Below, one piece after another: positions 545-12,421 of a stretch of DNA of 64,000 bases. The DNA is from a virus (lineage: Duplodnaviria > Caudoviricetes), in IMG/VR virus record IMGVR_UViG_3300020161_002395, positions 1 to 64,000 of that record, one strand, 5' to 3'. Numbering within the stretch: the first letter of the stretch is position 1; each line of letters begins with the position of its first letter. A program made the translations under genes and the position numbers. The notes beneath the pieces were generated by a model. It saw nothing but the letters and a program-made list of their open reading frames with translations. It was not told the origin of the DNA and made no database searches.

Positions 545-659
545 AAATGCATAGCATCGCTTTATGCTATGGTAGGTAAGTGCCTCTCGACTCTGATACG
601 ATGCCTCTCAAACTACAACTAGAGTTCTAATTGCAAATGGAACATAAGCACAATTTTAT

Positions 660-743
660 GTCCGGGTAGTGTAACAATTACATAGTAATGAACACGTTAG
701 GCACATAGCCTAAAAATTCGGTGAAAATCCGACCTTGACTCCA
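660..743 (+). pseudogene. Degenerate tRNA-like RNA with CAT at the anticodon position
   Basis: Acceptor gtccggg/ccttgac + TCCA; arm ttagg-caCATag-cctaa; aberrant T loop (TGAAAAT) and enlarged D region. Confidence 0.5.
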
Positions 744-802
744 AATTAAAAAAACTTGACATAGTTTTATAACAATGATATATATCATTAATTAAGGAAA
801 AA

Positions 803-1348
803 ATGAAACATAAATCATTAATTTTAGAAAATAATAAAAAAATAGAAGTTCTTGATAATATATTTCCGATGGATTTCAGAACAAGTGCGTATGATTTTTG
901 TAGAAACTCCCTATTCAGAATAGGGTGGTCCGATACAAATCAACCTGATAAAAAAGCAAATGATTACTTTTTTCATTCTGTATTCTCTCAAAAAGATTTG
1001 GATAATCTTGGTATTATGAAATATATTATGGACAGTCCAGTTGCTGATATGATAGAGGGGTTAACTATACATCAATGCATAGTTAATTGTTCAACACCGA
1101 GCGACGTGAATTTCACACATATTCATCAACAAAACAAAGTATTGTTATATTATGTAAATTTAGATTGGCAAGATGGTTGGCACGGTGAAACACAGTTTTA
1201 CACCGAGGATAATAAAGAAGTTCAATACACATCACCATATACACCTGGGCGATTAATAGTATTTGATGCTAACATCCCACATGCAATTAGACCACAATCA
1301 ATTATTGGTCCACAGCATAGGTTTACATTGGCGATTGTTTATAAATAA
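803..1348 (+). CDS. 2OG-Fe(II) oxygenase (prolyl-hydroxylase-like)
   Basis: LLYYVNLDWQDGWHGETQF and PGRLIVFDANIPHAIRP...RFTLA motifs. Confidence 0.8.
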   Translation: MKHKSLILENNKKIEVLDNIFPMDFRTSAYDFCRNSLFRIGWSDTNQPDKKANDYFFHSVFSQKDLDNLGIMKYIMDSPVADMIEGLTIHQCIVNCSTPSDVNFTHIHQQNKVLLYYVNLDWQDGWHGETQFYTEDNKEVQYTSPYTPGRLIVFDANIPHAIRPQSIIGPQHRFTLAIVYK

Positions 1349-1352
1349 AAAC

Positions 1353-1380
1353 TTGACATAGTTTTAAAACGCTGTATAAT
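1353..1380 (+). promoter_or_regulatory. sigma70-like promoter (example; similar ones near 332, 4634, 7674, 10913, 13684, 20569, 23993, 55851, 62333)
   Basis: TTGACA-N16-TATAAT directly upstream of element copy 1. Confidence 0.8.
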
Positions 1381-1400
1381 AGACAGCATAAACAGTTTTT

Positions 1401-1460
1401 AGGATACATTCAGCAACTTAATACATTTGACTGCTAATCAAAACCGTAAAACGTATCCTG
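1401..1460 (+). ncRNA. CAGCA-box element copy 1; cargo is a Ser(GCT) anticodon stem-loop
   Basis: aggatac-attCAGCAA...gtatcctg enclosing tttga-CTGCTAA-tcaaa. Confidence 0.8.
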
Positions 1461-1491
1461 TTTTAACTTAACTAAATTAAATTAAATTAAT

Positions 1492-1755
1492 ATGGAAGAA
1501 TTTTCAATAACAAAACATGAGTATGAAAAGTTTCAAGCTCACTTTACTTTTACACTTATAAAAATTCCAACATATAGATATGGACAAGCTTTTTTAAATT
1601 ACTTTTATCCTGATGCCGGTGAATACTTAATAAGTATTAGTAATTTAGGTACACCTCCTGGTGTACACGTTCCAAATTTAGACTCCATATTATGGAGTGA
1701 AAAATCATATCATAAAGCAAAAGATATGATTGAAGATCATATAGAAATAAAATAA
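1492..1755 (+). CDS. hypothetical protein
   Basis: 87-aa ORF between RNA elements. Confidence 0.6.
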   Translation: MEEFSITKHEYEKFQAHFTFTLIKIPTYRYGQAFLNYFYPDAGEYLISISNLGTPPGVHVPNLDSILWSEKSYHKAKDMIEDHIEIK

Positions 1756-1792
1756 AGAATATTCGAGGCTAGTCACCAGCGAATAGACCATT

Positions 1793-1908
1793 AGGTTAGT
1801 TTCAGCAAGTATTTTATTCTTCAGAAAAAGAAAGTTCTAGGTTCGAATCCTAGCACTAAAGTTGGTCGTTTTAGTGTAGTTTAATTGGGAAAACAAAATG
1901 CTAACCTG
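1793..1908 (+). ncRNA. CAGCA-box element copy 2; permuted tRNA-like cargo (GAA-containing loop, Phe-like)
   Basis: aggttag/ctaacct helix; T arm ctagGTTCGAATCctag, closed acceptor cactaaa/tttagtg, then D arm tagtttaattgggaaaac. Confidence 0.8.
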
Positions 1909-1921
1909 TAAAATGAACAAT

Positions 1922-1995
1922 TGGGATATGGTGTAGTGGTAACACAACTGGTTTTGATCCAGTCATCCATGGTTCGAATCCGTGTATCCCTGCCA
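1922..1995 (+). tRNA. tRNA-Gln(TTG)
   Basis: Acceptor tgggata/tatccct, anticodon loop ttTTGat, GCCA end. Confidence 0.92.
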
Positions 1996-2021
1996 ATTTT
2001 TAACTTTTATCGGAAAAGATA

Positions 2022-2432
2022 ATGCAAGTAATTGAAAAAGAAGTAAAACCTTACAACTTAATCGCTGAGTATCCTAGATACAATGGTACTGACCTTATTG
2101 AAGCGGTAAAAGTTTCAGTTAGCTCTTATAGAAACTATAAAGCTGATACATTAAGAAATACTCCTCATCACTTGAAATCATTTGTTGAGCAATATTTCAA
2201 TGATGCTGATAAACACTTTGAACGAGTATTGGATGTGGCAATACAAATTCCAAATTCATTCACTGCGGAAGTAACTGATTTCAATTCCATTAAATTGGTA
2301 CATAACGATGTTCATTACTTCTTGAACTTGCGAGTTGATCTTGATTCCAAATCAATCGCTGAGTCAGAATTCGTTTTATCATTGGTGAAACGAACACGTT
2401 TTATGGAATCTGAAAAAGCACGATTATCATAA
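2022..2432 (+). CDS. hypothetical protein
   Basis: 136-aa ORF with GGA RBS. Confidence 0.65.
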   Translation: MQVIEKEVKPYNLIAEYPRYNGTDLIEAVKVSVSSYRNYKADTLRNTPHHLKSFVEQYFNDADKHFERVLDVAIQIPNSFTAEVTDFNSIKLVHNDVHYFLNLRVDLDSKSIAESEFVLSLVKRTRFMESEKARLS

Positions 2433-2443
2433 TCGTTTAATTT

Positions 2444-2535
2444 AGGATGATTACAGCAATGTAACCCCGAAGCCGATTAGTTGGAATCTTAACTGGGTTC
2501 GAATCCCTGGGCTCCGCCAAATCTATATCATCCTG
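2444..2535 (+). ncRNA. CAGCA-box element copy 3; cargo resembles a tRNA 3' half ending in CCA
   Basis: aggatga/tcatcct helix, tACAGCAA; cargo has gggTTCGAATccc followed by gctccGCCA. Confidence 0.75.
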
Positions 2536-2558
2536 TATTTTTTAACTTAGGAGATAAA

Positions 2559-2819
2559 ATGAAACAATTAGTATTAATTGGACTATTAGCTTTATTGGCA
2601 ACTGGCTGTGCTTCAACATCATCAGTTGAACAACTACAACAACGTCTTGACACTGTGGAAGCTAATGAAAAGGTCACCAATGAAGAAATTCAAGTATTAA
2701 AACGTGCTTGTGATCAGATGCAAAAAACTGCAAAAGAGCAACACTTGAAATGCGTAGAACATTGCAAAACACTTGAATCTAAATTAGATCGTGTTTTCAA
2801 AAAATCACAGTTGAAATAA
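2559..2819 (+). CDS. Lpp/OprI-like coiled-coil lipoprotein
   Basis: Signal peptide with lipobox LATG-C, heptad coiled coil, C-terminal LDRVFKKS. Confidence 0.65.
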   Translation: MKQLVLIGLLALLATGCASTSSVEQLQQRLDTVEANEKVTNEEIQVLKRACDQMQKTAKEQHLKCVEHCKTLESKLDRVFKKSQLK

Positions 2820-2827
2820 ACAATTTT

Positions 2828-2941
2828 AGGATCCTTGCAGCATACAATTTTGCATTCCAAGCCGGAAACACAGGTTCGAATCCTGTACTCTTTCATAAAG
2901 AGTTCGTCTAGTGGTCTAGGACACTGAAAAAGCAGATCCTG
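2828..2941 (+). ncRNA. CAGCA-box element copy 4; permuted tRNA-Glu/Gly-like cargo
   Basis: aggatc/gatcct helix; cattccaa-gccgg-aaac, T arm acagGTTCGAATCctgt, acceptor hairpin actcttt/aaagagt, Glu-type D arm tcgtctagtggtctaggac. Confidence 0.82.
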
Positions 2942-2958
2942 CTAAATAAGAGAATATT

Positions 2959-3354
2959 ATGGCAAATAATGAACCAAAACAAGTAATTGTAGTTAGAAAA
3001 GACTTAAATATGCGTAAAGGAAAAATCGCCGCACAATCAGCACATGCATCAATTGGTGCAATTCTTAATTATAGTGGTGAAATTTATGAAGATAGTTTAA
3101 CTCTTAATGTCGAAAATCAAGCAGTAAGAGAATGGCTAAATGGCAGATTTACAAAGATTTGTGTATCGGTCGATAGTGAACAAGAATTACTTGACATTTA
3201 TCAACAAGCATTGGATAATGGTGTAAATGTTAAATTAATAAAAGATTCAGGATTAACTGAATTTGATGGGGTTCCAACTTATACTTGTTTAGCATTAGGT
3301 CCAGATTATCCAGAAAACATTGACCCAATTAGTGGTCATTTAAAATTGTTATAA
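2959..3354 (+). CDS. pth2: Peptidyl-tRNA hydrolase II (Pth2 family)
   Basis: KQVIVVRKDLNMRKGKIAAQSAHAS, KIC, IKDSGLTE...TCLALGP motifs. Confidence 0.92.
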   Translation: MANNEPKQVIVVRKDLNMRKGKIAAQSAHASIGAILNYSGEIYEDSLTLNVENQAVREWLNGRFTKICVSVDSEQELLDIYQQALDNGVNVKLIKDSGLTEFDGVPTYTCLALGPDYPENIDPISGHLKLL

Positions 3355-3359
3355 ACATT

Positions 3360-3434
3360 GCCCTTGTAGTTTAAAGGATAGAATACCTGGCTACGAACCA
3401 GATGATGGGGTTTCGAATACCTCCGAGGGTGCCA
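3360..3434 (+). tRNA. tRNA-Arg(ACG)
   Basis: Acceptor gcccttg/cgagggt, loop ctACGaa, GCCA end. Confidence 0.88.
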
Positions 3435-3443
3435 ATTTAATTA

Positions 3444-3516
3444 TCTGATATAGCTCAGTAGGTAGAGCACCACGCAAAGTGGGAGGTCATCGGTTCGAGT
3501 CCGATTATTAGCTCCA
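3444..3516 (+). pseudogene. tRNA-like RNA with intact D and T arms and CCA but a collapsed anticodon arm
   Basis: tagctcagtaggtagagc D arm, ccac-gcaaa-gtgg (4 bp + 5 nt), atcgGTTCGAGTCcgat, TCCA end. Confidence 0.65.
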
Positions 3517-3529
3517 ATATTTTAAAAAT

Positions 3530-3775
3530 ATGAAAGTTGTTAAACTAAAAAAATCACATCACTTATTTCAATACGGATATACAGTTGCATTAAGATTTAG
3601 TTCACCATATTCTCCTGGTGCACAAGCTTGTAAATCAGTTCTATGTGAATCTTATGGTATCGATTATACTAAATGGCATACATTTCGATCAGGAAAGAAT
3701 AGACCATATTGGATCGGATTGACAGATGAAAAATTAATGACTTTCCTATTGTTGAAAGTAGATCTAACAAAATAG
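3530..3775 (+). CDS. hypothetical protein
   Basis: 81-aa ORF between tRNAs. Confidence 0.6.
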   Translation: MKVVKLKKSHHLFQYGYTVALRFSSPYSPGAQACKSVLCESYGIDYTKWHTFRSGKNRPYWIGLTDEKLMTFLLLKVDLTK

Positions 3776-3781
3776 AATATT

Positions 3782-3857
3782 GCCCTGGTGACGGAATGGC
3801 ATACGTACTGGTCTTAGAAACCAGGTTTTGGGAGTTCAAGTCTCCCCCAGGGTACCA
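3782..3857 (+). tRNA. tRNA-Leu(TAG) with a short variable loop
   Basis: Acceptor gccctgg/ccagggt, ctggt-ctTAGaa-accag, 5-nt variable loop, ACCA end. Confidence 0.88.
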
Positions 3858-3863
3858 AATAAT

Positions 3864-3953
3864 GGAAGTGTGGGTGAGTGGCTATAAACCGCTGGTCTTG
3901 AAAACCAGTAATCCGTAACGGGATCGTGAGATCGAATCTCACCATTTCCGCCA
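3864..3953 (+). tRNA. tRNA-Ser(TGA)
   Basis: Acceptor ggaagtg/catttcc, loop ctTGAaa, long variable arm, GCCA end. Confidence 0.9.
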
Positions 3954-4083
3954 AATATAGGAGCCCTTCGTGGCGGACAAGCTCTTAACCTATTAAAATA
4001 AACAAGAGTGAGTTAGTTGACCAGATAACTTTCAACAGGAAGGCAGAGGTTTCATAGAGATTAAACTGCCCTGGCAATTTTTT

Positions 4084-4157
4084 AGCCCGGTGATGAAATG
4101 GTATCATGACGGTCTCCAAACCCGCTCTTGGGGGCTCAAATACCTCCCGCGCTGCCA
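4084..4157 (+). tRNA. tRNA-Trp(CCA), atypical T arm
   Basis: Loop ctCCAaa, GCCA end, T loop CTCAAAT, some stem mismatches. Confidence 0.72.
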
Positions 4158-4196
4158 AATTTAAGCACTATATTAGTGCAAACGATAAGTAGTTAT

Positions 4197-4637
4197 ATGC
4201 TAAAAGTTTATAACGACACTGATTTTACTACTTATATGGATTATGAAGAAATAACTAGACAACTAGATACAATTAGTGTATTATATGTCCAAGTTCCAAC
4301 CGATGAGAACATCATTGAACAGATTAAACACGATTATGATGTTCCGTACAATGATACCATTGTATTGAACAGTTTAACTGAAAATTATCAAGAATTACGT
4401 GAGAAATTCAATAAAGAGCATTATCATACCGATTATGAAATGCGGTTATTCACTCAGGGTAATGCTAGATTCTTTTTTAATTTTTCTGGTACAATATATG
4501 AACTAAAAGTTGGGACAAATGATTTAATCAGTGTTCCAGCTAATGTTAAACACTGGTTTGATGCCGGTGAACATCCAAATGTAGCTGCAATAAGATTTTT
4601 TACTGAAAGCAATGGATGGGAAGCAATTTATACTTGA
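4197..4637 (+). CDS. mtnD: Acireductone dioxygenase (ARD/cupin)-like
   Basis: KFNKEHYHTDYEMRLF...DLISVPANVKHWFDAG...AIRFF...GWEA; start moved to ATG 4197 because the ORF-track start overlaps tRNA-Trp. Confidence 0.82.
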   Translation: MLKVYNDTDFTTYMDYEEITRQLDTISVLYVQVPTDENIIEQIKHDYDVPYNDTIVLNSLTENYQELREKFNKEHYHTDYEMRLFTQGNARFFFNFSGTIYELKVGTNDLISVPANVKHWFDAGEHPNVAAIRFFTESNGWEAIYT

Positions 4638-4703
4638 CAAACAAAATTATTAGTGTATAATGTATACTAATTAACAAGCTCTTTAACAATTTTAAAAGTT
4701 TTT

Positions 4704-4825
4704 AGGATCCGTACAGCATACAATAATTGCATGTGGAGCCGTTGGTCGTTGGTTCAAATCCAACATCCCCGATAAACTAACGGGGATTAGCTCAGTCTGG
4801 TAGAGCAACGTAAAAAAGGATCCTG
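4704..4825 (+). ncRNA. CAGCA-box element copy 5; circularly permuted tRNA-Pro(TGG)
   Basis: aggatcc/ggatcct helix; 3' half (TGG-agccgtt-ggtc-gttgGTTCAAATCcaac-atccccg) precedes 5' half (cggggat-tagctcagtctggtagagc-aacg). Confidence 0.88.
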
Positions 4826-4884
4826 TTAAATTAATTATTGACAAATAATTAAACTAGTGTATTATACACTAAATAAAGAATTAA

Positions 4885-4959
4885 CGCAGAGTATATCAGT
4901 GGTAGATTGTTGGGCTCATAACCCAAAGGACGAGTGTTCGAATCACTCCTCTGCCTCCA
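4885..4959 (+). tRNA. tRNA-Met(CAT), initiator-type
   Basis: Mismatched first pair, ttggg-ctCATaa-cccaa with three G-C pairs, TCCA end. Confidence 0.85.
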
Positions 4960-4965
4960 AAATTT

Positions 4966-5100
4966 AGAATGCTTACAGCAACTATATTTTATTAATAAGA
5001 AACCGTTATCTTTGATTTGTAGGTTCAAGTCCTACCTTAAAACCAGGTTTTAAGTGGCGAAACTGGTAAACGCGATGGTAAAAAAATAAAATGCATTCTG
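4966..5100 (+). ncRNA. CAGCA-box element copy 6; permuted tRNA-Leu(TAA)-like cargo
   Basis: agaatgc/gcattct helix; aaTAAga, long variable region, gtagGTTCAAGTCctac, acceptor cttaaaa/ttttaag, Leu-type D arm tggcgaaactggtaaacgc. Confidence 0.82.
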
Positions 5101-5113
5101 ATAAAGAATTAAT

Positions 5114-5197
5114 GCGACTGTGGTGGAACGGTTTACACAGTGGGCTTAAAACCCATACTCTTCGGAGTTGCCAGTTCGAATCTGGCCAGTCGTACCA
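5114..5197 (+). tRNA. tRNA-Leu(TAA)
   Basis: Acceptor gcgactg/cagtcgt, loop ctTAAaa, variable arm actcttcggagt, ACCA end. Confidence 0.92.
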
Positions 5198-5207
5198 AAT
5201 AAAATAT

Positions 5208-5297
5208 GAAGATGTGGCCGAGATAGGACTATGGCACTTTCCTGCTAAGAAAGCATACCGCAAGGTATCACTGGTTCGAATCCAGTCATCTTCGCCA
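5208..5297 (+). tRNA. tRNA-Ser(GCT)
   Basis: Acceptor gaagatg/catcttc, ctttc-ctGCTaa-gaaag, long variable arm, GCCA end. Confidence 0.9.
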
Positions 5298-5314
5298 AAT
5301 TTAAGGGTAATTAA

Positions 5315-5593
5315 ATGATTAGTGGTGAACATAAAGGTATTAAGTATACCATTACAGAAGAAGCTTGTGATGATCTGCTTAAATTTCACGGTATTAATGC
5401 CATTGATGAATTTAAACGTGGAATTGAATTGGAATTGGAACAACTTCAATCAACAGTAATAATTGAAAATGATATTGCTACACTTCATATTACTAAAAAA
5501 ATAAATTTAGGATCTTTACAGCAACACTTTTTGGATTATAACAACACAAAATTGTTAGGTGGTTCAAATCCACCAAAAACCAAGATCCTGTAA
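5315..5593 (+). CDS. hypothetical protein; 3' end reads through element copy 7
   Basis: ORF with RBS; last ~28 codons overlap an RNA element. Confidence 0.5.
   Translation: MISGEHKGIKYTITEEACDDLLKFHGINAIDEFKRGIELELEQLQSTVIIENDIATLHITKKINLGSLQQHFLDYNNTKLLGGSNPPKTKIL
5509..5590 (+). ncRNA. CAGCA-box element copy 7; cargo is a hairpin plus a T arm
   Basis: aggatct/agatcct helix; taacaa/ttgtta hairpin then ggtgGTTCAAATCcacc. Confidence 0.78.
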
Positions 5594-5599
5594 AGTTTT

Positions 5600-5656
5600 A
5601 GGATGCATTCAGCAATTTTAAAAAACAAACTTGAAATTTGAAAAAAACGCATCCTG
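5600..5656 (+). ncRNA. CAGCA-box element copy 8; cargo is a Ser(TGA) anticodon stem-loop
   Basis: aggatgc/gcatcct helix enclosing caaa-CTTGAAA-tttg. Confidence 0.8.
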
Positions 5657-5801
5657 TTAGAATAGAAATATAAATAAACACATAGTTTACAATAAAATGC
5701 GGTGCGAGATTTAGACATTGTATATCAATGTTTTGAATGATCGGTATCTTGGTACAACTCACTCTTGATACTAAACTATCTATTAATTAAGTGTTATATG
5801 C

Positions 5802-5887
5802 TCCACCCTACTCTAATGGTAAGAGGACTGACTGTTAATCAGTTGTAATCGGGAAACCGTATGCGTGTTCGAGTAGCGCGGGTGGAG
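5802..5887 (+). tRNA. tRNA-Asn(GTT) with a long variable arm, no encoded CCA
   Basis: Acceptor tccaccc/gggtgga, actga-ctGTTaa-tcagt, 19-nt variable region containing cgg-gaaa-ccg. Confidence 0.8.
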
Positions 5888-6000
5888 CATATAGCATTTA
5901 GTGCTGTATTGACAATTCAAATAACTAATGATATAATTGTATTTTTTCGGGCCACAGCGAATTACGATAATGAGAATTATTGACTGTGGCAATCAATTTT

Positions 6001-6075
6001 GGGGAATAAGTGTTGTAGGTGGCACACAAGATTTGCATTCTTGAAGGAGCGATTCGATTTCGCTATTCTCCACCA
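6001..6075 (+). tRNA. tRNA-Ala(TGC)
   Basis: G3:U70 pair, caaga-ttTGCat-tcttg, ACCA end. Confidence 0.88.
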
Positions 6076-6104
6076 AAATTTTAACACACTGACTAGACGG
6101 TACT

Positions 6105-6284
6105 ATGTTTGAGAATTTAGAAGAACCAACTGAATTTGATTATGAATTGATTAAAATCATATATCGATTGATGACATTAGAAGAAAGAACGGAATTTTCG
6201 AACAAGATTAAAGAATCATTTAGTCAAAATGATTTAATTGCAACAAAAGAATTAGCCAAAACTATATTGGCAACAAAAATGTAA
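6105..6284 (+). CDS. small hypothetical protein (59 aa, not in ORF track)
   Basis: MFENLEEPTEFDYELIK... open frame in line with downstream genes. Confidence 0.5.
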   Translation: MFENLEEPTEFDYELIKIIYRLMTLEERTEFSNKIKESFSQNDLIATKELAKTILATKM

Positions 6285-6295
6285 AGGATTATACG

Positions 6296-6484
6296 ATGGC
6301 AGGATGGCATGGTGGTAAAGGATCTAAATCAAGACCAGTAAACAGACAGAAATTTGCTGATAATTGGGATGCGATCTTTGGAAAGAAACCAGAAGTTAAA
6401 GAAGAAGTAAGTGATACAACAACTGAAGAAGCAGTTGAAATTATCAAAGAATATAAAAAAACACTTGACAACGATAATAAATAA
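6296..6484 (+). CDS. small hypothetical protein
   Basis: AAGGA RBS; MAGWHGGKGSKSRP...WDAIFGKK. Confidence 0.6.
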   Translation: MAGWHGGKGSKSRPVNRQKFADNWDAIFGKKPEVKEEVSDTTTEEAVEIIKEYKKTLDNDNK

Positions 6485-6504
6485 TAGTATAATAAGGACA
6501 TCAA

Positions 6505-6684
6505 ATGGCAACTATTAGTAAAGCAAACAGAAAAGCTAACCCTAATCAAACTAAAAATGGTAAGGTTAGAATTGGTAATTTTAGTTTAGCTAAATTGCAA
6601 GAACTAGTTGAAAAAACTAGTAGACCACGTGATAAACGTAAATATCAAAATCGTATTAACATTCTTATTAAAAGAGGTGCCTAA
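6505..6684 (+). CDS. small basic protein (59 aa, not in ORF track)
   Basis: AAGGA RBS; MATISKANRKANPNQTKNGKVRIG...; K/R-rich. Confidence 0.55.
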   Translation: MATISKANRKANPNQTKNGKVRIGNFSLAKLQELVEKTSRPRDKRKYQNRINILIKRGA

Positions 6685-6824
6685 TGGCCGTAGAAGTAAA
6701 GAAATGCAATTGTAATCACGAATTTCAAGACAAAACATACGGTAAAGGTATGCGAGTTATGAATCTCGATTTTAAGAAAACTAATGCCACTTGTACAGTA
6801 TGTGGTACTAAACACAAAGTTTAA
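6684..6824 (+). CDS. small Cys-rich, putative Zn-binding protein (46 aa)
   Basis: GAGG RBS; MAVEVKKCNCNHEFQDKTYGKGMRVMN...CTVCG. Confidence 0.55.
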   Translation: MAVEVKKCNCNHEFQDKTYGKGMRVMNLDFKKTNATCTVCGTKHKV

Positions 6825-6858
6825 AGAATAAGTCCTTCTAATGGAAGGACTACTAAAT

Positions 6859-6941
6859 GCTGAGTTCCTATAGCGGCGATTAGAGCGGTCTTGTAAGCCG
6901 TTGGTTAATACCCACCGTGGGTTCGAGTCCCACACTCAGCT
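6859..6941 (+). tRNA. tRNA-Thr(TGT) with a long variable arm, no encoded CCA
   Basis: Acceptor gctgagt/actcagc, loop ctTGTaa, ~15-nt variable region, gtggGTTCGAGTCccac. Confidence 0.75.
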
Positions 6942-6997
6942 TACCCAATTAATTTAAGAATAGTTTTCCAAGTTAATTGATGTAATATAAACAATTT

Positions 6998-7052
6998 AGG
7001 ATACATTCAGCAAGTAAAAAACTTTCAATTGGTGAAAACAAAACGTATCCTG
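6998..7052 (+). ncRNA. CAGCA-box element copy 9
   Basis: aggatac/gtatcct helix; cargo hairpin tttca-attgg-tgaaa. Confidence 0.8.
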
Positions 7053-7068
7053 TTAATAGGAAAACATA

Positions 7069-7677
7069 ATGAAAGTAGATGAAATAGTCTCATATCCAAG
7101 TAGAGATGGTAATGTTTGGAAATTTCAACATCATTTTAATGGTGTAAAGTTAGTGCCAGCATTTTCTAATTTAAATTATGCATTGGTTAATAGCCACGGT
7201 ACCGAATACTATGGATTATTTGATGAAAACACTCAATTGGTTAGTATTTTGGAATTAGATGAACGTGATACCCCATATTGGCAAATTTCATACACTGAAA
7301 CAGTTTCAACTTATCGTCGTCAAGGTTGTTTTAGATATTTATTGCTTAAAGCAGTGGAAAAACATACTACAATATTAAGTGATGAACATCAAACGAAAGA
7401 ATCTGAACATGCTTGGAAATCTTTGATACAATATCCAAGTGAACGATTACAATTTAAGATGTATAATACTAAAACTGGTGATATTGAAGATGTAGAACAA
7501 CAAATAGTATGGGATGATACTAGTGTTTATGTTATGTTAGTTACAAATTCACACTTTACTGAAAGTATGAAACACCTTTCTGAAATTAGAGATAGTTATA
7601 CTATCAAAAATAACAGACATTTTGATGGATTATGGTTTGGTCCAGAATCTAGTAATGAAAATTACGAAAATCCTTGA
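7069..7677 (+). CDS. putative GNAT-fold acetyltransferase
   Basis: Motif-A-like ISYTETVSTYRRQGCFRYLL; SDEHQT...AWKSL. Confidence 0.55.
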   Translation: MKVDEIVSYPSRDGNVWKFQHHFNGVKLVPAFSNLNYALVNSHGTEYYGLFDENTQLVSILELDERDTPYWQISYTETVSTYRRQGCFRYLLLKAVEKHTTILSDEHQTKESEHAWKSLIQYPSERLQFKMYNTKTGDIEDVEQQIVWDDTSVYVMLVTNSHFTESMKHLSEIRDSYTIKNNRHFDGLWFGPESSNENYENP

Positions 7678-7711
7678 CATCATAAGATATTTTTAGTATA
7701 ATAAGATTTTT

Positions 7712-7766
7712 AGGATACATTCAGCAAGTAAAAAACTTTCAATTGGTGAAAACAAAACGTATCCTG
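7712..7766 (+). ncRNA. CAGCA-box element copy 10 (identical to copy 9)
   Basis: Exact repeat of 6998-7052; own promoter TTGACA 7674 / TATAAT 7697. Confidence 0.8.
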
Positions 7767-7789
7767 TTAAATTTTATAAAGCACTTTGA

Positions 7790-7875
7790 GCGGGTGTAGC
7801 TCAGTATGGTTAGAGCGCGGTCCTTCCAAGTCCGAGGCGAATAGTTTTACGCAGGTTCAAATCCTGTCACCCGCT
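7790..7875 (+). tRNA. tRNA-Gly(TCC) with an enlarged variable region, no CCA
   Basis: Acceptor gcgggtg/cacccgc, loop ctTCCaa, 16-nt variable region; flanks pair (aaagcactttga/tcaaagtgcttt). Confidence 0.75.
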
Positions 7876-7887
7876 CAAAGTGCTTTG

Positions 7888-8640
7888 TTATTTTGATAAC
7901 AGTTCTTTCACTAGATCTAATTTTGATTTATTTTGGTATTCTTTATGCGAAATACGTAATATTTCAACATTGTAGTGAGACATAATGTAAGCATCACGGT
8001 CGATATCATAATCGATAGTTTTCAAGTGTTGGGTACCATCTAATTCTATAATTAGTGCTAGATCGGGGAAATAAAAATCACCAAAATACGTTTTTACTAT
8101 ATCATAGCGTCTAAAAGGTTGTTCAGTTATGTAATTTATACTTGGATAATTTTCATTAAGCCACTTTTCAAATGAAAGTTCCATATATGACCTTTTATTC
8201 CTACCTCGATTTGATTTTGGATTAAAGGTATTATTTGCAATACTATTTTTAATTCTAATTGAAAGGTATTTACGATTACAAGCATCAGAACATGTATTAC
8301 TATTTTTAGGATGAAATTTATTGCAAATTTTACATTGTTTAATTTTTGTAAATGCTGGTCCGTATTGTTTATAATTTAATTTAGCAATAGATATTTTGGC
8401 AGCCTCTACTTGTTTCACAGTCGGTTTCCATCCATCAGCAATGCGTTTTTTATTGTTATATTTTGCAGAACATGATTGATTACAAAATTTGTTATTTGAA
8501 TAAATTGGTTCTTGACATTCTAAACAATATGATTTTGGATCTTTTACAGAATGATATTTTTTATAATGACTTTTTATGTTTTGAGTAGTTAATGGTTCTT
8601 TACAAGAAATGCAAGAACAGTACAAATGAAATTTAGACAT
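7888..8640 (-). CDS. Free-standing endonuclease, Vsr/DUF559-like with Zn-finger repeats
   Basis: C-terminal DFYFPDLALIIELDGTQH...DRDAY...ILRI; N-terminal CxxC, FCNQSC and TCSDAC repeats. Confidence 0.75.
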   Translation of the reverse strand: MSKFHLYCSCISCKEPLTTQNIKSHYKKYHSVKDPKSYCLECQEPIYSNNKFCNQSCSAKYNNKKRIADGWKPTVKQVEAAKISIAKLNYKQYGPAFTKIKQCKICNKFHPKNSNTCSDACNRKYLSIRIKNSIANNTFNPKSNRGRNKRSYMELSFEKWLNENYPSINYITEQPFRRYDIVKTYFGDFYFPDLALIIELDGTQHLKTIDYDIDRDAYIMSHYNVEILRISHKEYQNKSKLDLVKELLSK

Positions 8641-8795
8641 TTAATTTCTCCAGATATAAATAAAAGTATGGGACAGCCTAGTTCTCCAGACTGGGTTTTG
8701 AAATACTCGTAATATTTCAATTACCATAACTATTTATCAAAAAGTTATTGACACAATTTTAATTTTTTGTTATAATTACATAAATTAAAAGTTTT

Positions 8796-8850
8796 AGGCT
8801 CAATTCAGCATACATCATCTTACCATTATAAAGAAACCAAGATGAGCCTG
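8796..8850 (+). ncRNA. CAGCA-box element copy 11
   Basis: aggctca/tgagcct helix (compensatory changes), attCAGCAT; promoter upstream. Confidence 0.78.
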
Positions 8851-8979
8851 TTTTAATGATTGACAACTACAATACTATAAAGTATAATACAACAAATAAC
8901 TGGTGCTATTACAACTAATAATTACTATATCGATCATAGATCCGAGTTACATAGATAGTACCAGTTATAAACGAATAAT

Positions 8980-9052
8980 TGCGGGGTATATCAGTGGTAG
9001 ATAGCTGGGCTCATAACCCAGAGGTCGTTGGTTCGATTCCAACCCTCCGCTT
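8980..9052 (+). tRNA. tRNA-Met(CAT), second initiator-type copy, no intact CCA
   Basis: ctggg-ctCATaa-cccag, gttgGTTCGATTCcaac. Confidence 0.8.
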
Positions 9053-9093
9053 CCCTTCGGAATACTGAATAAATCAGTATTCCAAAATGTTTT

Positions 9094-9196
9094 AGGGTCA
9101 CTACAGCAATCAATGTTTAAGCCAAGCTGGAGGAACGGTTCGATTCCGTCTAGAAGTATACCGGTTGTATGCCAGCAATAACAAATGATGACCCTG
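9094..9196 (+). ncRNA. CAGCA-box element copy 12; permuted tRNA-Gly(GCC)-like cargo without an acceptor stem
   Basis: agggtca/tgaccct helix; aaGCCaa-gctgg, acgGTTCGATTCcgt, D-like agtataccggttgtat, ccagc pairing with gctgg. Confidence 0.8.
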
Positions 9197-9209
9197 TTTT
9201 AATAATTTT

Positions 9210-9320
9210 AGGATACATTCAGCAAGTTGATACACCCTGGAGGTCGTAGGTTCGAGTCCTACATTCTCTTAAGAGGATTAGCTCAGTTGGGAGAGCGCCT
9301 GGCTAAAAACACGTATCCTG
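9210..9320 (+). ncRNA. CAGCA-box element copy 13; permuted tRNA-Val(TAC)-like cargo
   Basis: aggatac/gtatcct helix; gaTACac, aggtc, gtagGTTCGAGTCctac, acceptor attctct/agaggat, D arm tagctcagttgggagagc. Confidence 0.85.
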
Positions 9321-9340
9321 TTTTAATTCAAAAGGAATAT

Positions 9341-9613
9341 ATGACACAAGTAACAGCAAGACATATTTTAGTAGGAACTTTGGAAGAAGCACAATCATTG
9401 GCAACACAAATCAATGAAGGTGCAGATTTTGGTGCATTGGCACAACAGCATTCAAAATGCCCAAGTGGAAAGAATGGTGGTAATTTAGGTCCATTTGGTC
9501 GTGGACAAATGGTTAAACCATTTGAGGATGTATCATTTGGACTGGATGTTGGTGGATTTAGCGAACCAGTTCAAACACAATTTGGCTATCATTTAATCAA
9601 CAGAACTGCATAA
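9341..9613 (+). CDS. ppiC: Parvulin-type peptidyl-prolyl isomerase
   Basis: ARHILV, FGALAQQHSKCPS, GGNLGPFGRGQMVKPFE, TQFGYHLI; AAGGA RBS before ATG 9341. Confidence 0.93.
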   Translation: MTQVTARHILVGTLEEAQSLATQINEGADFGALAQQHSKCPSGKNGGNLGPFGRGQMVKPFEDVSFGLDVGGFSEPVQTQFGYHLINRTA

Positions 9614-9617
9614 GTTT

Positions 9618-9905
9618 ATGAAGACACAAGTTTTAGATGATCGAGTTGTAGTTAAAAAGAAAGACGTTGCTAAAACCAATTCATTTGGTATAGTTATCCC
9701 AGAAGACAAAACTGTAAAAACTTCAGAAGGTGAAGTAATTGCAGTTGGTGAAGGTAAGCAACTTGATAATGGTGTCATTCGAGAGATGACTGTTAAAGTT
9801 GGTGACACAGTACTATTTCCAAAAGGTGCTGGGGTTGAAGTAAAAATTGAAGATATTGAATGTGTAGTTTTACGTGAAACTGAAATATTCGGTATCTTAG
9901 AGTAA
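9618..9905 (+). CDS. groES: GroES co-chaperonin
   Basis: LDDRVVVK...GIVIP...GEVIAVGEG...VKVGDTVLF...LRETEIFG. Confidence 0.92.
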   Translation: MKTQVLDDRVVVKKKDVAKTNSFGIVIPEDKTVKTSEGEVIAVGEGKQLDNGVIREMTVKVGDTVLFPKGAGVEVKIEDIECVVLRETEIFGILE

Positions 9906-9917
9906 AGATTTAATTAT

Positions 9918-9996
9918 GCTCCAATACCAAAGTGGCTTAATGGGACTGATTGCAAATCAGTAAAAATCGGCGGTTCGAATCCGTCTTGGAGCTCCA
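9918..9996 (+). tRNA. tRNA-Cys(GCA)
   Basis: Acceptor gctccaa/ttggagc, loop ttGCAaa, TCCA end. Confidence 0.9.
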
Positions 9997-10038
9997 GCTG
10001 TAAAATACATTGTCAACTCGGTGTATTAGTAAAAAAAT

Positions 10039-10131
10039 GGAATAGCTACAGCAAAAAGTTCGCGGTTAATACCCGCTCCGGAAAGACTTCTTTTGCTATT
10101 AGAAGAAAAACAAATGGCAATCCCTATTCCG
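10039..10131 (+). ncRNA. CAGCA-box element copy 14
   Basis: ggaatag/ctattcc-g helix, ctACAGCAA; multi-hairpin non-tRNA cargo. Confidence 0.72.
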
Positions 10132-10140
10132 AACTATTTT

Positions 10141-10247
10141 AGGCTAGATACAGCAATCCAAATATTATAATGGATGGACTGGCGAACATACTGCTGGTCG
10201 AACTGGAAGGAAAGAGCCAGTATAAACCTTCAACAAACACTAGCCTG
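10141..10247 (+). ncRNA. CAGCA-box element copy 15
   Basis: aggctag/ctagcct-g helix, atACAGCAA. Confidence 0.75.
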
Positions 10248-10905: not shown

Positions 10906-10950
10906 AAATCATTTGACAAACAAAATAAATCTGCTATAATACACACTTAT

Positions 10951-10986
10951 AGTTTAGTAAACAGCAAACAAAAACACACTAACCTG
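10951..10986 (+). promoter_or_regulatory. Minimal cargo-less CAGCA-box element (copy 17) in the 5' leader of the TROVE/vWA gene
   Basis: agtttagt-aaACAGCAA-acaaaaacac-actaacct-g between the promoter (TTGACA 10913 / TATAAT 10935) and RBS AGGAG at 10991. Confidence 0.7.
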
Positions 10987-11002
10987 ACATAGGAGATACA
11001 CA

Positions 11003-12421
11003 ATGACTACATTCGTAGAAGCAGTAGAAAATCAAGAATCTCATACCGCTAATGGTATGAAAGCACTTAAATCAACCACTAATAAAGCAGTAGACTTTTT
11101 CTACAATGTCGGCGCAAGCCGTGGTAAAGACATTATTCCTGCTTTTACATCAGCATATGTTGAAGATAAAGATCTAGCAATGCGTATTGCATTATGGGCA
11201 CGAGATGCTCGTGGTGGTTCCGGTGAACGTAAATTGTTCCGAGATATTTTAGCTCATTTAGAAACAGTTGACATCGATGCTGCAAAAGCATTGTTATCAA
11301 AGGTCCCAGAATTGGGTCGTTGGGACGATATTTTCGTTTTCAAAACTCAAGAAATGAAAACCGAAGCTTTCACAATGTTGAAAAATGCATTGACTGATGG
11401 TAATGGTTTAGCAGCTAAATGGACACCACGTAAAGGTGATGTAGCAGTTGAATTCCGTAAGTTTTTAGGTTGGAGCCCAAAGCAATACCGCAAAACATTG
11501 GTTTCTTTGACTAACGTTGTTGAAACGCAAATGTGTGCAAATGATTGGGATAACATCAACTTTAACCATGTGCCATCATTGGCAAGTGCTCGATACAAAA
11601 AAGCATTCAACCGCCATACTCCAAAGTTTGCAGAATATGTTGCAAAACTAATCGCCGGTGATAAGTCTGTTAGTGTTGCAGCTGGTGCAGTTTTCCCTTA
11701 TGATGTACTAAAAGGTGTTGGTAGTTACGGTTTTGATAGAACTGAAAAAAATCACATCATCGCCCAATGGGATGCGTTACCAAATTTTGTTGGCGATGCT
11801 AATATCTTACCATTGGTCGATGTTAGTGGTTCTATGAGTTGTAAAGCAGGTGGTCATAACTCTAAAACTGATTTAACCTGTATGGATGTTGCAGTATCAC
11901 TAGGTTTATACTTGGCTGATAAAAACACTGGTAAGTTTAAAGATACCTTTATTACCTTCAGTGAACGTCCAGAGTTGTTAACTCTACGCGGTAACGTGGT
12001 AGAAAAAGCAACTCAAATGGTTAAATCTGCATGGGGTATGAGTACTAACTTACACGCTGCATTTGATTTAATTTTAGATGTAGCAACCAAGTTTGATGTA
12101 CCACAAGCTGAAATACCAGAAATGCTCCTTATACTTTCCGATATGCAGTTCAGTCCATCAACTATCAGAGGAATTGATGAAACAGCAATGGAAATGATAA
12201 CACGTAAATATGAAGCAGCTGGGTATACAATTCCACAAATTGTGTTCTGGAACATCAATGCTGCTGACAACGTACCAGTTAAATCTGACAAGTCAGGTGC
12301 GGCGATGGTTTCTGGATTCAGTCCAGCTATTGTTAAAGCATTATTATCAGCTGATATGAGCGACTTCACCCCTGAAGGCATCATGTTAAAAACTGTAATG
12401 GTTGACCGATACGCTGTTTAA
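11003..12421 (+). CDS. TROVE/Ro60-like protein with C-terminal vWA domain (DUF2828-like)
   Basis: TANGM, RDARGGSGER, GRWDD, LAAKWTPR, VPSLA motifs; MIDAS DVSGS...STN...ILSDMQF, IVFWN, VSGFS. Confidence 0.8.
   Translation: MTTFVEAVENQESHTANGMKALKSTTNKAVDFFYNVGASRGKDIIPAFTSAYVEDKDLAMRIALWARDARGGSGERKLFRDILAHLETVDIDAAKALLSKVPELGRWDDIFVFKTQEMKTEAFTMLKNALTDGNGLAAKWTPRKGDVAVEFRKFLGWSPKQYRKTLVSLTNVVETQMCANDWDNINFNHVPSLASARYKKAFNRHTPKFAEYVAKLIAGDKSVSVAAGAVFPYDVLKGVGSYGFDRTEKNHIIAQWDALPNFVGDANILPLVDVSGSMSCKAGGHNSKTDLTCMDVAVSLGLYLADKNTGKFKDTFITFSERPELLTLRGNVVEKATQMVKSAWGMSTNLHAAFDLILDVATKFDVPQAEIPEMLLILSDMQFSPSTIRGIDETAMEMITRKYEAAGYTIPQIVFWNINAADNVPVKSDKSGAAMVSGFSPAIVKALLSADMSDFTPEGIMLKTVMVDRYAV

What the first reader, a model, noticed from the sequence alone, without database searches (positions are those of the whole stretch)
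10913..11005. Cargo-less copy in the TROVE/vWA gene's own leader: likely autoregulatory operator
The smallest element (helix agtttagt/actaacct with one mismatch, plus ACAGCAA) starts about 10 nt after the -10 box and ends 4 nt before the AGGAG RBS of 11003-12421. RNA-binding proteins often repress their own translation through a mimic of their target. This is the best in-sequence link between the scaffold and this protein.
Basis: inference. Interest (0 to 1): 0.75.

Follow-up and report, generated by a model that had tools for sequence, protein, structure and literature searches.

The report
Minimal Y-RNA handle in Ro60-like leader
The messenger RNA of a phage's Ro60-like RNA-binding protein starts with a stripped-down copy of the "handle" carried by the phage's own Y-RNA-like small RNAs; several unrelated phage lineages share this layout, which suggests, but does not prove, that the protein controls its own synthesis.

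Summary
Between a perfect sigma-70 promoter (10913-10940) and the ribosome-binding site of the Ro60-like DUF2828 gene (11003-12421) lies a 37-nt minimal copy (10950-10986) of the handle shared by 15 other scaffold RNAs in the window. It has a closing helix (8 of 9 pairs), AAA, CAGCAA, a 10-nt A-rich linker and CUG.

It is not chance. A strict descriptor expects about 0.9 hits per 64-kb strand. A covariance model built only from relatives' leaders ranks it 6th in the window.

All 77 usable related contigs keep a handle copy directly in front of the gene, and its helix covaries. Leader copies form their own subclass:
- small cargo only
- weaker helix
- almost never the UU tail of free copies
- 11-16 nt from the handle to the ATG

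The same promoter / minimal handle / SD design recurs in Stenotrophomonas, Sinorhizobium, Aeromonas and jumbo enterobacterial phages. KVP40-like phages appear to use the start codon itself as the 3' strand.

Many other homologs have no leader copy. Binding, regulation and its direction are untested.

Best reading: a cis site for its own protein, giving autogenous control (0.45). The scan made the same suggestion before on other DNA (e1-5710865).

The parts
10913..10918 (+). -35 hexamer TTGACA
   Evidence: Consensus scan, 12/12 match with a 16-nt spacer. Conserved in the closest relatives L001, L004 and L007.
10932..10940 (+). Extended -10 (TG-n-TATAAT). The inferred transcription start lies near 10947-10948, 2-3 nt before the handle.
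   Evidence: The start site is inferred from promoter geometry and was not measured.
10950..10958 (+). Handle helix, 5' strand (UAG + 6 nt)
   Evidence: Pairs with 10978-10986, 8 of 9 positions, with the mismatch at 10953/10983. The homologous columns covary in 52 related leaders: 92.5% of cells paired, 5 of 8 pairs with changes on both sides, 0 of 500 shuffles as high.
10959..10967 (+). Unpaired spacer AAA plus the invariant CAGCAA box
   Evidence: CAGCA is invariant in all 52 aligned leaders. It is shared by the 15 other scaffold copies of the window.
10968..10977 (+). A-rich 10-nt linker that takes the place of the cargo
   Evidence: The closest relatives differ here only by indels (13-14 nt), while the helix and the box stay fixed.
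10978..10986 (+). Handle helix, 3' strand, ending in CCUG
   Evidence: It is followed by A, not by the UU that follows 75% of free copies.
10991..10995 (+). Shine-Dalgarno AGGAG, 4 nt after the handle and 7 nt before the ATG
   Evidence: Its predicted unpaired probability is 0.56 when the RNA folds freely and 0.87 when the handle helix is enforced.
11003..12421 (+). Gene for the 472-aa Ro60-like protein (DUF2828 + DUF7788, vWA domain with a DxSxS MIDAS motif)
   Evidence: Pfam; PHROG 850 'RNA-binding protein'; invariant D273/S275/S277; AlphaFold2 model with mean pLDDT 79.3; best Foldseek hits are Thermus phage phiLo Ro60 (9KOP, 9L5Y), Xenopus Ro60 (1YVR, 1YVP, 2I91) and Deinococcus Rsr (2NVO), full length, TM about 0.6.
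1401..10247 (+). Context: the free scaffold copies interleaved with tRNA genes. These are the presumed trans ligands that the leader copy imitates.
   Evidence: 14 copies meet the strict descriptor and one more (10039) carries a GG/CC variant. Sub-threshold Rfam YrlA hits lie at 4720-4844 and 9210-9322, and Dicty_Class_I_RNA hits at 1402, 5601, 6999 and 7713.

Best explanation
The element is a cis-acting, cargo-less copy of the handle (closing helix + CAGCAA + CUG) that marks the phage's Y-RNA-like partner RNAs. It forms the extreme 5' end of the mRNA for the Ro60-like DUF2828 protein and abuts the Shine-Dalgarno sequence.

Proposed mechanism (inferred, not shown): the protein first loads onto its higher-affinity free RNAs. 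Surplus protein then binds the weaker leader handle, 4 nt from the SD, and sterically hinders 30S binding. This would be autogenous translational repression by target mimicry.

Shown here:
- the element is real
- it belongs to the handle family
- it is conserved with covariation in front of this gene
- it forms a distinct subclass
- the same design recurs in other lineages

Inferred:
- that the protein binds the handle at all
- that it binds the leader copy
- the sign of the effect
For: 1. Family membership. The helix, spacer, CAGCAA box, A-rich linker and CUG all match the window's other copies. A model built from relatives only scores the element at 20 bits.

2. Conservation. 77 of 77 related IMG/VR loci (66-90% protein identity) carry a handle copy directly before the gene. 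Helix 1 is 92.5% paired, 5 of 8 pairs change on both sides, 0 of 500 shuffles reach the observed values, and slid controls pair at 47% or less. Pair 3 is G-C in some relatives (e.g. L008) and U-A in others (L045, L050). The window's U x C is what an intermediate between them would look like.

3. Leader copies are a separate subclass among 148 distinct copies.
- Cargo is 10-40 nt only; free copies range from 27 to 169 nt.
- The base after C(U/A)G is A in 30 of 41. UU follows in 1 of 41, against 80 of 107 free copies.
- The distance from the terminal G to the ATG is 11-15 nt in 40 of 41. Free copies that precede an ORF sit 16-32+ nt away.
- Helix energy has a median of -5.7 kcal/mol against -9.0 for free copies. 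In the window it is -3.3 against -8.4 to -12.4.
A weaker site than the true ligand is what autogenous operators usually show (general knowledge from ribosomal-protein operators).

4. Recurrence of the promoter or upstream gene / minimal handle / G / SD design, each with a different helix sequence.
- Stenotrophomonas DLP_6 and Serratia BF
- contigs L129 and L155
- Yersinia fHe-Yen9-04, Salmonella PHA46, Aeromonas 4_4572 and Sinorhizobium phiN3
These fall in at least 2-3 separate protein clades. In L129, PHA46 and phiN3, as in the window, the handle starts 9-10 nt after a -10 box.

5. KVP40-like phages. Five of them keep GACAT-N4-CAGCAA in an otherwise diverged leader, and the complementary ATGTC is the start codon plus 2 nt. 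No free scaffold family was found in the KVP40 genome.

6. The protein has the Ro60 fold. Handle RNAs lie beside its homologs on the same strand in very different phages.
Against: - No binding or expression data exist.
- Many homologs have no leader handle: FelixO1-like Alf5, Samty, Staphylococcus CoN_Ph8, Aeromonas Ahp1, Milchi, RSP15, ME3 and a 25-row clade of marine contigs. Autoregulation through such a site cannot be a general property of the family.
- In this window the 16-nt gap to the ATG is no tighter than after copy 9 (16 nt) or copy 4 (17 nt). Compact packing could explain the spacing here.
- The 77 related loci share ancestry, so the counts and the Mann-Whitney p-value are not independent observations.
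- The hairpin is not more stable than shuffled sequence.
- RNA folding alone does not hide the SD. Enforcing the helix raises SD accessibility from 0.56 to 0.87, so an activating or stabilising effect is as compatible with the RNA data as repression.
- The KVP40 helix is only 5 bp, and its 3' strand is constrained by coding. No covariation is available there.
Confidence: 0.45

Rival explanations
1. It is an ordinary partner-RNA gene that happens to be last in the array. It is co-transcribed with the protein gene, as YrlA/YrlB are with rsr in M. smegmatis or Yrl1/Yrl2 with phiLo Ro60. It is cut out of the precursor and acts in trans as a small, cargo-less or hairpin-bearing Y-like RNA. Adjacency to the SD would reflect phage genome compaction and co-expression, not regulation.
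For: - In most relatives the leader copy is preceded by another scaffold's ...CCUGUU end rather than by a promoter. It is therefore the last unit of a tandem array.
- Relatives' leader copies are most similar to the window's free short-cargo copies, which score 40-45 bits against R1.
- Other scaffold copies in the window are followed by ORFs 16-23 nt away.
- Y-like RNAs encoded upstream of Ro60 genes and processed from one precursor are documented (PMC4201824, PMC12135203).
- In other phages the RNAs lie downstream of the gene, so position is flexible.
Against: - Leader copies systematically lack the UU tail, have weaker helices and never carry tRNA-like cargo.
- The window's version has no cargo at all and the weakest helix of the 15 copies measured.
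- Minimal versions directly behind promoters recur in unrelated lineages.
- In KVP40-like phages the motif cannot be excised as a separate closed RNA, because its only visible partner strand is the start codon.
Confidence: 0.27
2. It is a 5'-terminal stabiliser or positive element. A hairpin 2-4 nt from the 5' end, alone or capped by the protein, protects the mRNA from 5'-end-dependent decay or opens the SD. Binding would then raise expression rather than lower it.
For: - The handle begins about 2-4 nt after the inferred start site in the window, L129, PHA46 and phiN3.
- Enforcing the helix raises predicted SD accessibility in the window's clade from 0.56-0.63 to 0.87-0.96, because CCUG can otherwise pair with UAGG of the SD.
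- 5' stem-loops stabilise E. coli mRNAs such as ompA (general knowledge).
Against: - The hairpin is very weak by itself (-1.3 kcal/mol).
- A simple stabiliser would not need an invariant CAGCAA box.
- In most relatives the element does not follow a promoter.
- Across all 52 leaders the accessibility change is small (0.75 to 0.85).
Confidence: 0.15
3. It is a decaying remnant of a scaffold copy that lost its cargo. It has no function and is kept only by recent common descent.
For: - The helix has a mismatch and is the weakest in the window.
- In L002/L003 two basal pairs are lost.
- The T-run and the UU tail are missing.
Against: - The helix covaries across 52 distinct leaders.
- CAGCA is invariant, while the linker accumulates indels between close relatives.
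- Similar minimal copies occur in distant lineages with unrelated helix sequences.
Confidence: 0.05
4. The handle is a recognition site for something other than the Ro60-like protein, for example a host RNase or a processing or modification enzyme. It would mark where the precursor is cut next to the SD.
For: - Conserved ends (UAG...CUGUU) in arrays that must be processed.
- Dictyostelium Class I RNAs, which have the same architecture, are reported to bind an RRM protein, Rnp1A (PMC7919456).
Against: - The handle RNAs travel with the DUF2828 gene on the same strand in phages of Gram-positive, Gram-negative, cyanobacterial, actinobacterial and Campylobacter hosts. A host-specific enzyme is an unlikely common factor.
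- KVP40-like phages keep the motif only in this gene's leader.
Confidence: 0.08

Closest known systems
Ro60/Rsr with Y RNAs (bacterial and mycobacteriophage YrlA/YrlB, Rfam RF02553; Thermus phage phiLo Ro60 with Yrl1/Yrl2)
   Same: - The protein is a ring-shaped HEAT-repeat + vWA protein (fold match).
- The small RNAs have a terminal stem plus a short single-stranded recognition box, and some carry a tRNA-like domain.
- They are encoded next to the protein gene on the same strand (PMC4201824, PMC12135203).
   Different: - The recognition box is CAGCAA, not GNCGAA/CGAA.
- The protein matches Pfam DUF2828/DUF7788, not TROVE.
- The leader copy has no Rfam match.
- No cis-acting Y-like element in a Ro60 mRNA leader and no Ro60 autoregulation appear in the papers I searched ('autoregul' occurs 0 times in PMC12135203).
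Dictyostelium Class I RNAs (Rfam RF01414)
   Same: - The architecture of the handle matches: A-G + 6-bp stem joining the ends, U-U-A-CAGCAA box next to the 5' strand, A-rich stretch before the 3' strand, end C-U-G-U (Rfam alignment; PMC7919456).
- Four free copies in the window score 24-29 bits against RF01414.
   Different: - These scores are below the gathering score of 41.5.
- The leader copy itself gives no hit and is shorter (37 nt against 42-65 nt).
- Class I RNAs are free cytoplasmic RNAs of an amoeba, reported to bind Rnp1A and not known to sit in an mRNA leader.
- Homology as opposed to convergence was not tested.
Autogenous translational operators that mimic the protein's main RNA ligand (E. 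coli thrS leader, ribosomal-protein operons, T4 gp43 and RegA, MS2 coat protein operator; from general knowledge)
   Same: - The site lies in the protein's own 5' UTR, next to or overlapping the SD or start codon.
- It resembles the ligand.
- It is weaker than the ligand.
   Different: - Binding and repression are unproven here.
- The protein family (Ro60-like) has no known example.
- RNA folding alone does not sequester the SD.
5'-terminal stabilising stem-loops (e.g. the ompA 5' UTR; general knowledge)
   Same: A hairpin lies within a few nt of the transcript's 5' end in the window and in L129, PHA46 and phiN3.
   Different: The hairpin is very weak. It carries an invariant single-stranded box shared with trans RNAs.

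Membership tests
CAGCAA-handle scaffold RNAs of this phage group | Closing helix of 6-9 bp that starts (U)AG and ends CU(G) | tested here: met
   10950-10958 pairs with 10978-10986, 8 of 9 positions, with one U x C mismatch. The 14 free copies measured are perfect or nearly so, at -8.4 to -12.4 kcal/mol against -3.3 here.
CAGCAA-handle scaffold RNAs of this phage group | 1-4 nt spacer followed by an unpaired CAGCA(A/U) next to the 5' strand | tested here: met
   AAA + CAGCAA at 10959-10967. Position -2 is A here, whereas it is T in the window's free copies.
CAGCAA-handle scaffold RNAs of this phage group | Recognised by a covariance model of the family built without this sequence | tested here: met
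   R1 scores it at 20.0 bits, E = 0.14 for 128 kb, rank 6 behind five other copies. The score is low because the model's cargo columns are deleted.
CAGCAA-handle scaffold RNAs of this phage group | Free-RNA ends: U-run before the helix and UU after CUG | tested here: not met
   The helix is preceded by cacttat and followed by ACAU. UU follows 80 of 107 free copies but only 1 of 41 leader copies.
CAGCAA-handle scaffold RNAs of this phage group | Variable cargo (hairpin or tRNA-like module) between the box and the 3' strand | tested here: not met
   Only the 10-nt A-rich linker is present.
Y RNA / YrlA (RF02553) | Match to the Rfam model, GNCGAA-type Ro-binding box, and tRNA-like domain | tested here: not met
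   The leader has no Rfam match at E <= 10 and no CGAA box. Two free copies match YrlA below threshold (48.9 and 37.9 bits against a gathering score of 69).
Y RNA / YrlA (RF02553) | Encoded next to a Ro60-type gene on the same strand | tested here: met
   It lies directly upstream of 11003-12421, whose model has the Ro60 fold.
Dictyostelium Class I RNA (RF01414) | Match to the Rfam model; 42-65 nt; 6-bp terminal stem plus an 11-nt box | tested here: not met
   The leader gives no hit. The element is 37 nt. It shares only the ACAGCAA part of the box, and the stem has a mismatch.
Autogenous translational operator (target mimicry) | Lies in the protein's own leader, next to the SD or start codon | tested here: met
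   4 nt from the SD and 16 nt from the ATG. The distance to the ATG is 11-15 nt in 40 of 41 distinct related leader copies.
Autogenous translational operator (target mimicry) | Resembles the protein's primary RNA ligand | tested here: inconclusive
   It resembles the handle of the neighbouring RNAs. That those RNAs are the protein's ligands is inferred only from co-occurrence and from the fold.
Autogenous translational operator (target mimicry) | The protein binds the site and changes its own translation | not testable with these tools
   This needs EMSA, toeprinting or reporter assays.
Ro60/TROVE proteins (for the gene product) | HEAT-repeat ring plus C-terminal vWA domain with a MIDAS motif | tested here: met
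   Full-length Foldseek hits to 9KOP, 9L5Y, 1YVR, 1YVP, 2I91 and 2NVO, probability 1.0, TM 0.46-0.61. DxSxS is invariant in 33 homologs.
Ro60/TROVE proteins (for the gene product) | Sequence-level match to the TROVE family or to solved Ro60 chains | tested here: not met
   Pfam reports only DUF2828 and DUF7788. phmmer against PDB sequences finds nothing at E <= 1. NCBIfam finds nothing.

The most novel reading that the evidence does not exclude
A Ro60-like protein family uses a minimal, roughly 37-nt copy of its partner RNAs' handle at the 5' end of its own mRNA as a dosage sensor. This design would have been kept or re-invented in several phage lineages, in KVP40-like phages with the start codon as part of the helix. 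It would be the first autoregulatory circuit known for any Ro60-type protein. It would also hand experimenters the smallest natural binding site for a handle that looks like the orphan Class I RNAs of social amoebae.
Probability: 0.4. Interest if true: 0.72.

Novelty: new variant of a known kind. Interest (0 to 1): 0.6.

Why it matters
Ro60 and Y RNAs are studied in autoimmunity, RNA quality control and, recently, phage counter-defence. A Felixounavirus homolog, Bas63 gp130, is reported to counter the Ppl defence system (bioRxiv 10.1101/2024.10.10.617714).

How a cell or phage matches the amount of Ro60-type protein to its RNA partners is not known. A natural 37-nt cis copy of the handle would help in three ways:
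- It offers a concrete, testable regulatory mechanism.
- It defines the minimal recognition element (helix + CAGCAA + CUG) for the DUF2828 branch, for which no ligand has been shown.
- It gives a simple reporter assay for binding in vivo. That assay could also test whether the similar Class I RNAs of Dictyostelium use the same recognition code.

If the element turns out to be only the last RNA gene of an array, the finding is ordinary.

Tried and rejected
- Rfam on the leader alone gave only noise hits.
- Thermodynamic support for the hairpin is absent. MFE is -1.3 kcal/mol with z = 0.06, and the helix is missing from the MFE fold of the 89-nt leader.
- SD sequestration by RNA structure is not supported. 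The SD is mostly open with or without the helix. I also considered a pseudoknot between the CUUU that follows the box and the AAAG of the SD in relatives. I dropped it because the pairing is not kept in divergent leaders (read).
I did not try again.
- R1 and my strict descriptor found no free handle family in the KVP40 genome. The descriptor gave 15 forward and 11 reverse hits, which is chance level. This is weak negative evidence only.
- A permissive helix scan (7 or more pairs anywhere within 170 nt of CAGCA) was useless: 42 forward against 25 reverse hits. I replaced it with the strict descriptor.
- My automatic classification of leaders mis-parsed several loci (L002, L008, L089, L104, L155). 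I corrected L089, L104 and L155 by eye before building the tree. L002 and L008 stayed labelled 'upstream', so the counts are approximate.
- Sequence searches of PDB and NCBIfam with the protein returned nothing. The ESM Atlas showed only viral DUF2828 clusters, so I could not test whether Dictyostelium encodes a DUF2828 protein.
- The leaders of Cronobacter S13 and Citrobacter Ci1 have a hairpin ending in ..CCUG before the SD but no CAGCA box. I left them as ambiguous.
Full report
WHAT IS THERE

The window is the first 64 kb of a 164.7-kb IMG/VR virus record. Bases 470-10000 form a tRNA island with 14 ARAGORN tRNAs. Interleaved with them is a repeat family: a T-run, UAGG plus 4-5 nt, a 2-3 nt spacer, CAGCA(A/U), variable cargo, an A-rich linker, the complementary strand, and CCUG followed by UU. 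The pattern AGG-N7-CAGCAW occurs 13 times on the forward strand and never on the reverse strand of the whole record, always within 1401-10156.

The gene at 11003-12421 encodes a 472-aa protein.
- It matches Pfam DUF2828 and DUF7788 and PHROG 850 'RNA-binding protein'.
- It has no sequence match in PDB or NCBIfam.
- An AlphaFold2 model built on 33 homologs (mean pLDDT 79.3) matches over its full length the Ro60 of Thermus phage phiLo (9KOP, 9L5Y), Xenopus and human Ro60, and Deinococcus Rsr.
- A DxSxS MIDAS motif is invariant.

So 'TROVE/vWA' is right as a fold, not as a Pfam assignment.

THE OBSERVATION

A 12/12 promoter with a TG extension ends at 10940. The helix strands are 10950-10958 and 10978-10986, with 8 of 9 positions paired and a U x C mismatch at 10953/10983. 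AAA and CAGCAA occupy 10959-10967. A 10-nt A-rich linker stands where other copies carry cargo. AGGAG begins 4 nt after the terminal G, and the ATG follows 16 nt after that G.

A strict descriptor finds 16 forward and 2 reverse hits in the window, against 0.92 expected per strand. A covariance model built from 48 leader copies of related contigs, excluding the window's own clade, scores 10948-10988 at 20.0 bits. This is the sixth best hit in 128 kb, behind the window's five other short-cargo copies. Chance is excluded.

The hairpin is nevertheless feeble: -1.3 kcal/mol, no better than shuffles. It is much the weakest helix of the family here, at -3.3 kcal/mol against -8.4 to -12.4 for the 14 free copies measured.

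A scan of IMG/VR returned 80 loci whose protein is 66-90% identical. All 77 with enough upstream sequence carry a CAGCA handle directly before the start codon.

In an alignment of 52 distinct leaders, CAGCA is invariant. The helix is 92.5% paired, and 5 of 8 pairs change on both sides. No shuffle of 500 reaches the observed values, and slid controls pair at 47% or less. Pair 3 is G-C in some relatives (e.g. L008) and U-A in others (L045, L050). The window's U x C is what an intermediate between those two states would look like. Between the closest relatives only the linker changes, by indels.

LEADER COPIES ARE NOT JUST ONE MORE COPY

I compared 41 distinct leader copies with 107 distinct free copies in these loci.
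- Leader copies carry only 10-40 nt between the box and the 3' strand. Free copies carry 27-169 nt, including the tRNA-like ones.
- Leader copies are followed by A (30 of 41) and almost never by UU (1 of 41). Free copies are followed by UU in 80 of 107.
- Leader copies lie 11-15 nt from the ATG in 40 of 41 cases.
- Free copies that happen to precede an ORF lie 16-32 nt or more from it.
- Leader helices are weaker, with a median of -5.7 against -9.0 kcal/mol. The third base is mostly A or U rather than the G of free copies.

These counts share ancestry and are not independent. The differences do hold across at least six different helix sequences.

OTHER LINEAGES

The protein family is found in 710 phage records. 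I sampled 26 named phages and 80 more contigs related to the KVP40 protein. The relatives-only model R1 finds handle RNAs beside the gene, always on its strand, in a mycobacteriophage, Listeria A511, Campylobacter CP81, a Felixounavirus, a cyanophage and a Staphylococcus phage.

A minimal or small handle whose terminal G is followed within a few nt by the SD recurs in:
- Stenotrophomonas DLP_6
- Serratia BF, Yersinia fHe-Yen9-04 and Salmonella PHA46 (box variant CAACA)
- Aeromonas 4_4572
- Sinorhizobium phiN3
- contigs L129 and L155

Each has its own helix sequence. In L129, PHA46 and phiN3, as in the window, the handle starts 9-10 nt after a -10 box, at the very 5' end of the transcript.

Five KVP40-like phages keep GACAT, four bases and CAGCAA in an otherwise diverged leader. 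The only complement, ATGTC, is the start codon plus two bases. I found no free handle family in the KVP40 genome.

On a protein tree these cases fall in at least two or three separate clades.

Against this, many phages have no handle in the leader. Alf5, Samty, Staphylococcus CoN_Ph8, Ahp1, Milchi, RSP15, ME3 and a 25-row clade of marine contigs lack one. Their RNAs lie downstream or were not found. In A511, CP81, BUCT-ZZ01, BUCT194, EniLVp02 and PJN02 the nearest upstream copy is of the free type, 20-35 nt away.

HOW IT MOST LIKELY WORKS

What is shown: the element is a conserved, structurally constrained and distinct member of the handle family, placed at the 5' end of this mRNA next to the SD.

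What is inferred: the Ro60-like protein binds the handle. This rests on co-occurrence, on the fold, and on the analogy with Ro60 and Y RNAs, including phiLo Ro60 with its upstream Yrl1/Yrl2 (PMC12135203; PMC4201824). A further inference is that binding to the weak leader copy feeds back on translation.

A weaker site than the real ligand, touching the SD, is the classical layout of autogenous repression by mimicry (thrS, ribosomal proteins, T4 gp43; general knowledge). I therefore rate this as the most likely mechanism, at 0.45.

The sign is open. RNA folding does not hide the SD, and enforcing the helix even frees it in the window's clade (0.56 to 0.87). A 5'-terminal protein-capped hairpin could also stabilise the message.

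The main rival is that this is simply the last co-transcribed partner RNA, cut off the mRNA. In this window other scaffold-to-ORF junctions are spaced just as tightly (16-17 nt).

COMPARISON WITH WHAT IS KNOWN

The system works like Ro60 with Y RNAs. It fails membership of YrlA, since the box differs and the scores are sub-threshold or absent.

The handle has the same architecture as Dictyostelium Class I RNAs. The Rfam consensus aligns stem, box, A-rich stretch and CUG. The paper describes a 6-bp stem, an 11-nt box and ends AAG...CUGU, and reports no such RNA outside dictyostelids (PMC7919456). The hits are below threshold and the leader copy gives none.

I found no paper on DUF2828 in phages, none on Ro60 autoregulation and none on the box.

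EARLIER NOTES OF THIS SCAN

Earlier notes describe the same RNA-protein pairing on many other genomes. One of them, e1-5710865, makes the same leader suggestion on other DNA. My analysis was done on this window and on loci I fetched myself.

VERDICT

- Observation: confirmed.
- Interpretation: partly supported.
- Novelty: new variant of a known kind (autogenous control by target mimicry, here for a Ro60-like protein).
- Interest: 0.6.

Noticed in passing
window 1402-1460, 5601-5656, 6999-7052, 7713-7766: Free short-cargo scaffold copies hit Rfam Dicty_Class_I_RNA (RF01414) at 24-29 bits, below the gathering score of 41.5. The alignment matches stem, UU(A)CAGCAA box, A-rich stretch and CUG. The published view is that Class I RNAs exist only in dictyostelids (PMC7919456).
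   Followed up: partly
window 4720-4844 and 9210-9322: Long-cargo copies hit Rfam YrlA (RF02553) below threshold, at 48.9 and 37.9 bits against a gathering score of 69. They are tRNA-like Y RNAs with a CAGCAA handle instead of the CGAA box.
   Followed up: partly
L091 2440-2510 (KVP40), L097, L098, L102, L104: KVP40-like phages have -10 box, about 13 nt, GACAT, 4 nt, CAGCAA, about 20 nt that include the SD, then ATGTC, which is the start codon. The block is invariant in five phages while the flanks diverge. No free handle RNAs were found in the KVP40 genome.
   Followed up: partly
L100 1430-1500 (Serratia BF), L199 (Yersinia fHe-Yen9-04), L207 (Salmonella PHA46): The leader handles of these jumbo phages carry CAACA instead of CAGCA. 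An RNA ligase gene lies just upstream of the Ro60-like gene in all three records.
   Followed up: no
L090 4396-4516 and 4526-4638 (Cronobacter phage S13): Features annotated as a 121-nt tRNA-Ser and a 113-nt 'tRNA-OTHER' contain CAGCA handles. They are more likely Y-like scaffold RNAs than decoding tRNAs.
   Followed up: no
L094 2361-2498 (Campylobacter phage CP81 ORF140): This annotated 45-aa CDS lies entirely over two handle RNAs (2323-2386 and 2395-2473). It is probably not a real gene.
   Followed up: no
L092 4255-5087 (Escherichia phage Alf5): Four handle RNAs (AGACC.. tta CAGCAA .. GGUCUGG) sit unannotated between the tRNA genes downstream of the Ro60-like gene. A homolog in the related phage Bas63 (gp130) is reported to counter the Ppl defence system, and its authors guessed that some 'tRNAs' there are Y RNAs (bioRxiv 10.1101/2024.10.10.617714).
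   Followed up: partly
window 5802-5888, 6859-6941, 7790-7876, 9918-9996: ARAGORN calls tRNA-Asn, Thr, Gly and Cys at unusual lengths (79-87 nt). In the two Rfam alignments shown (Asn and Thr) the extra bases sit in the variable region.
   Followed up: no
window 10983-10993: The CCUG of the handle's 3' strand can alternatively pair with the UAGG of the SD, as it does in the MFE fold of the 89-nt leader. Handle formation and partial SD masking are therefore mutually exclusive in the window's clade. The effect is small.
   Followed up: partly
window 11006-11017: A 4-bp hairpin (CUAC auuc GUAG) lies directly after the start codon in the predicted fold. I did not check its conservation.
   Followed up: no
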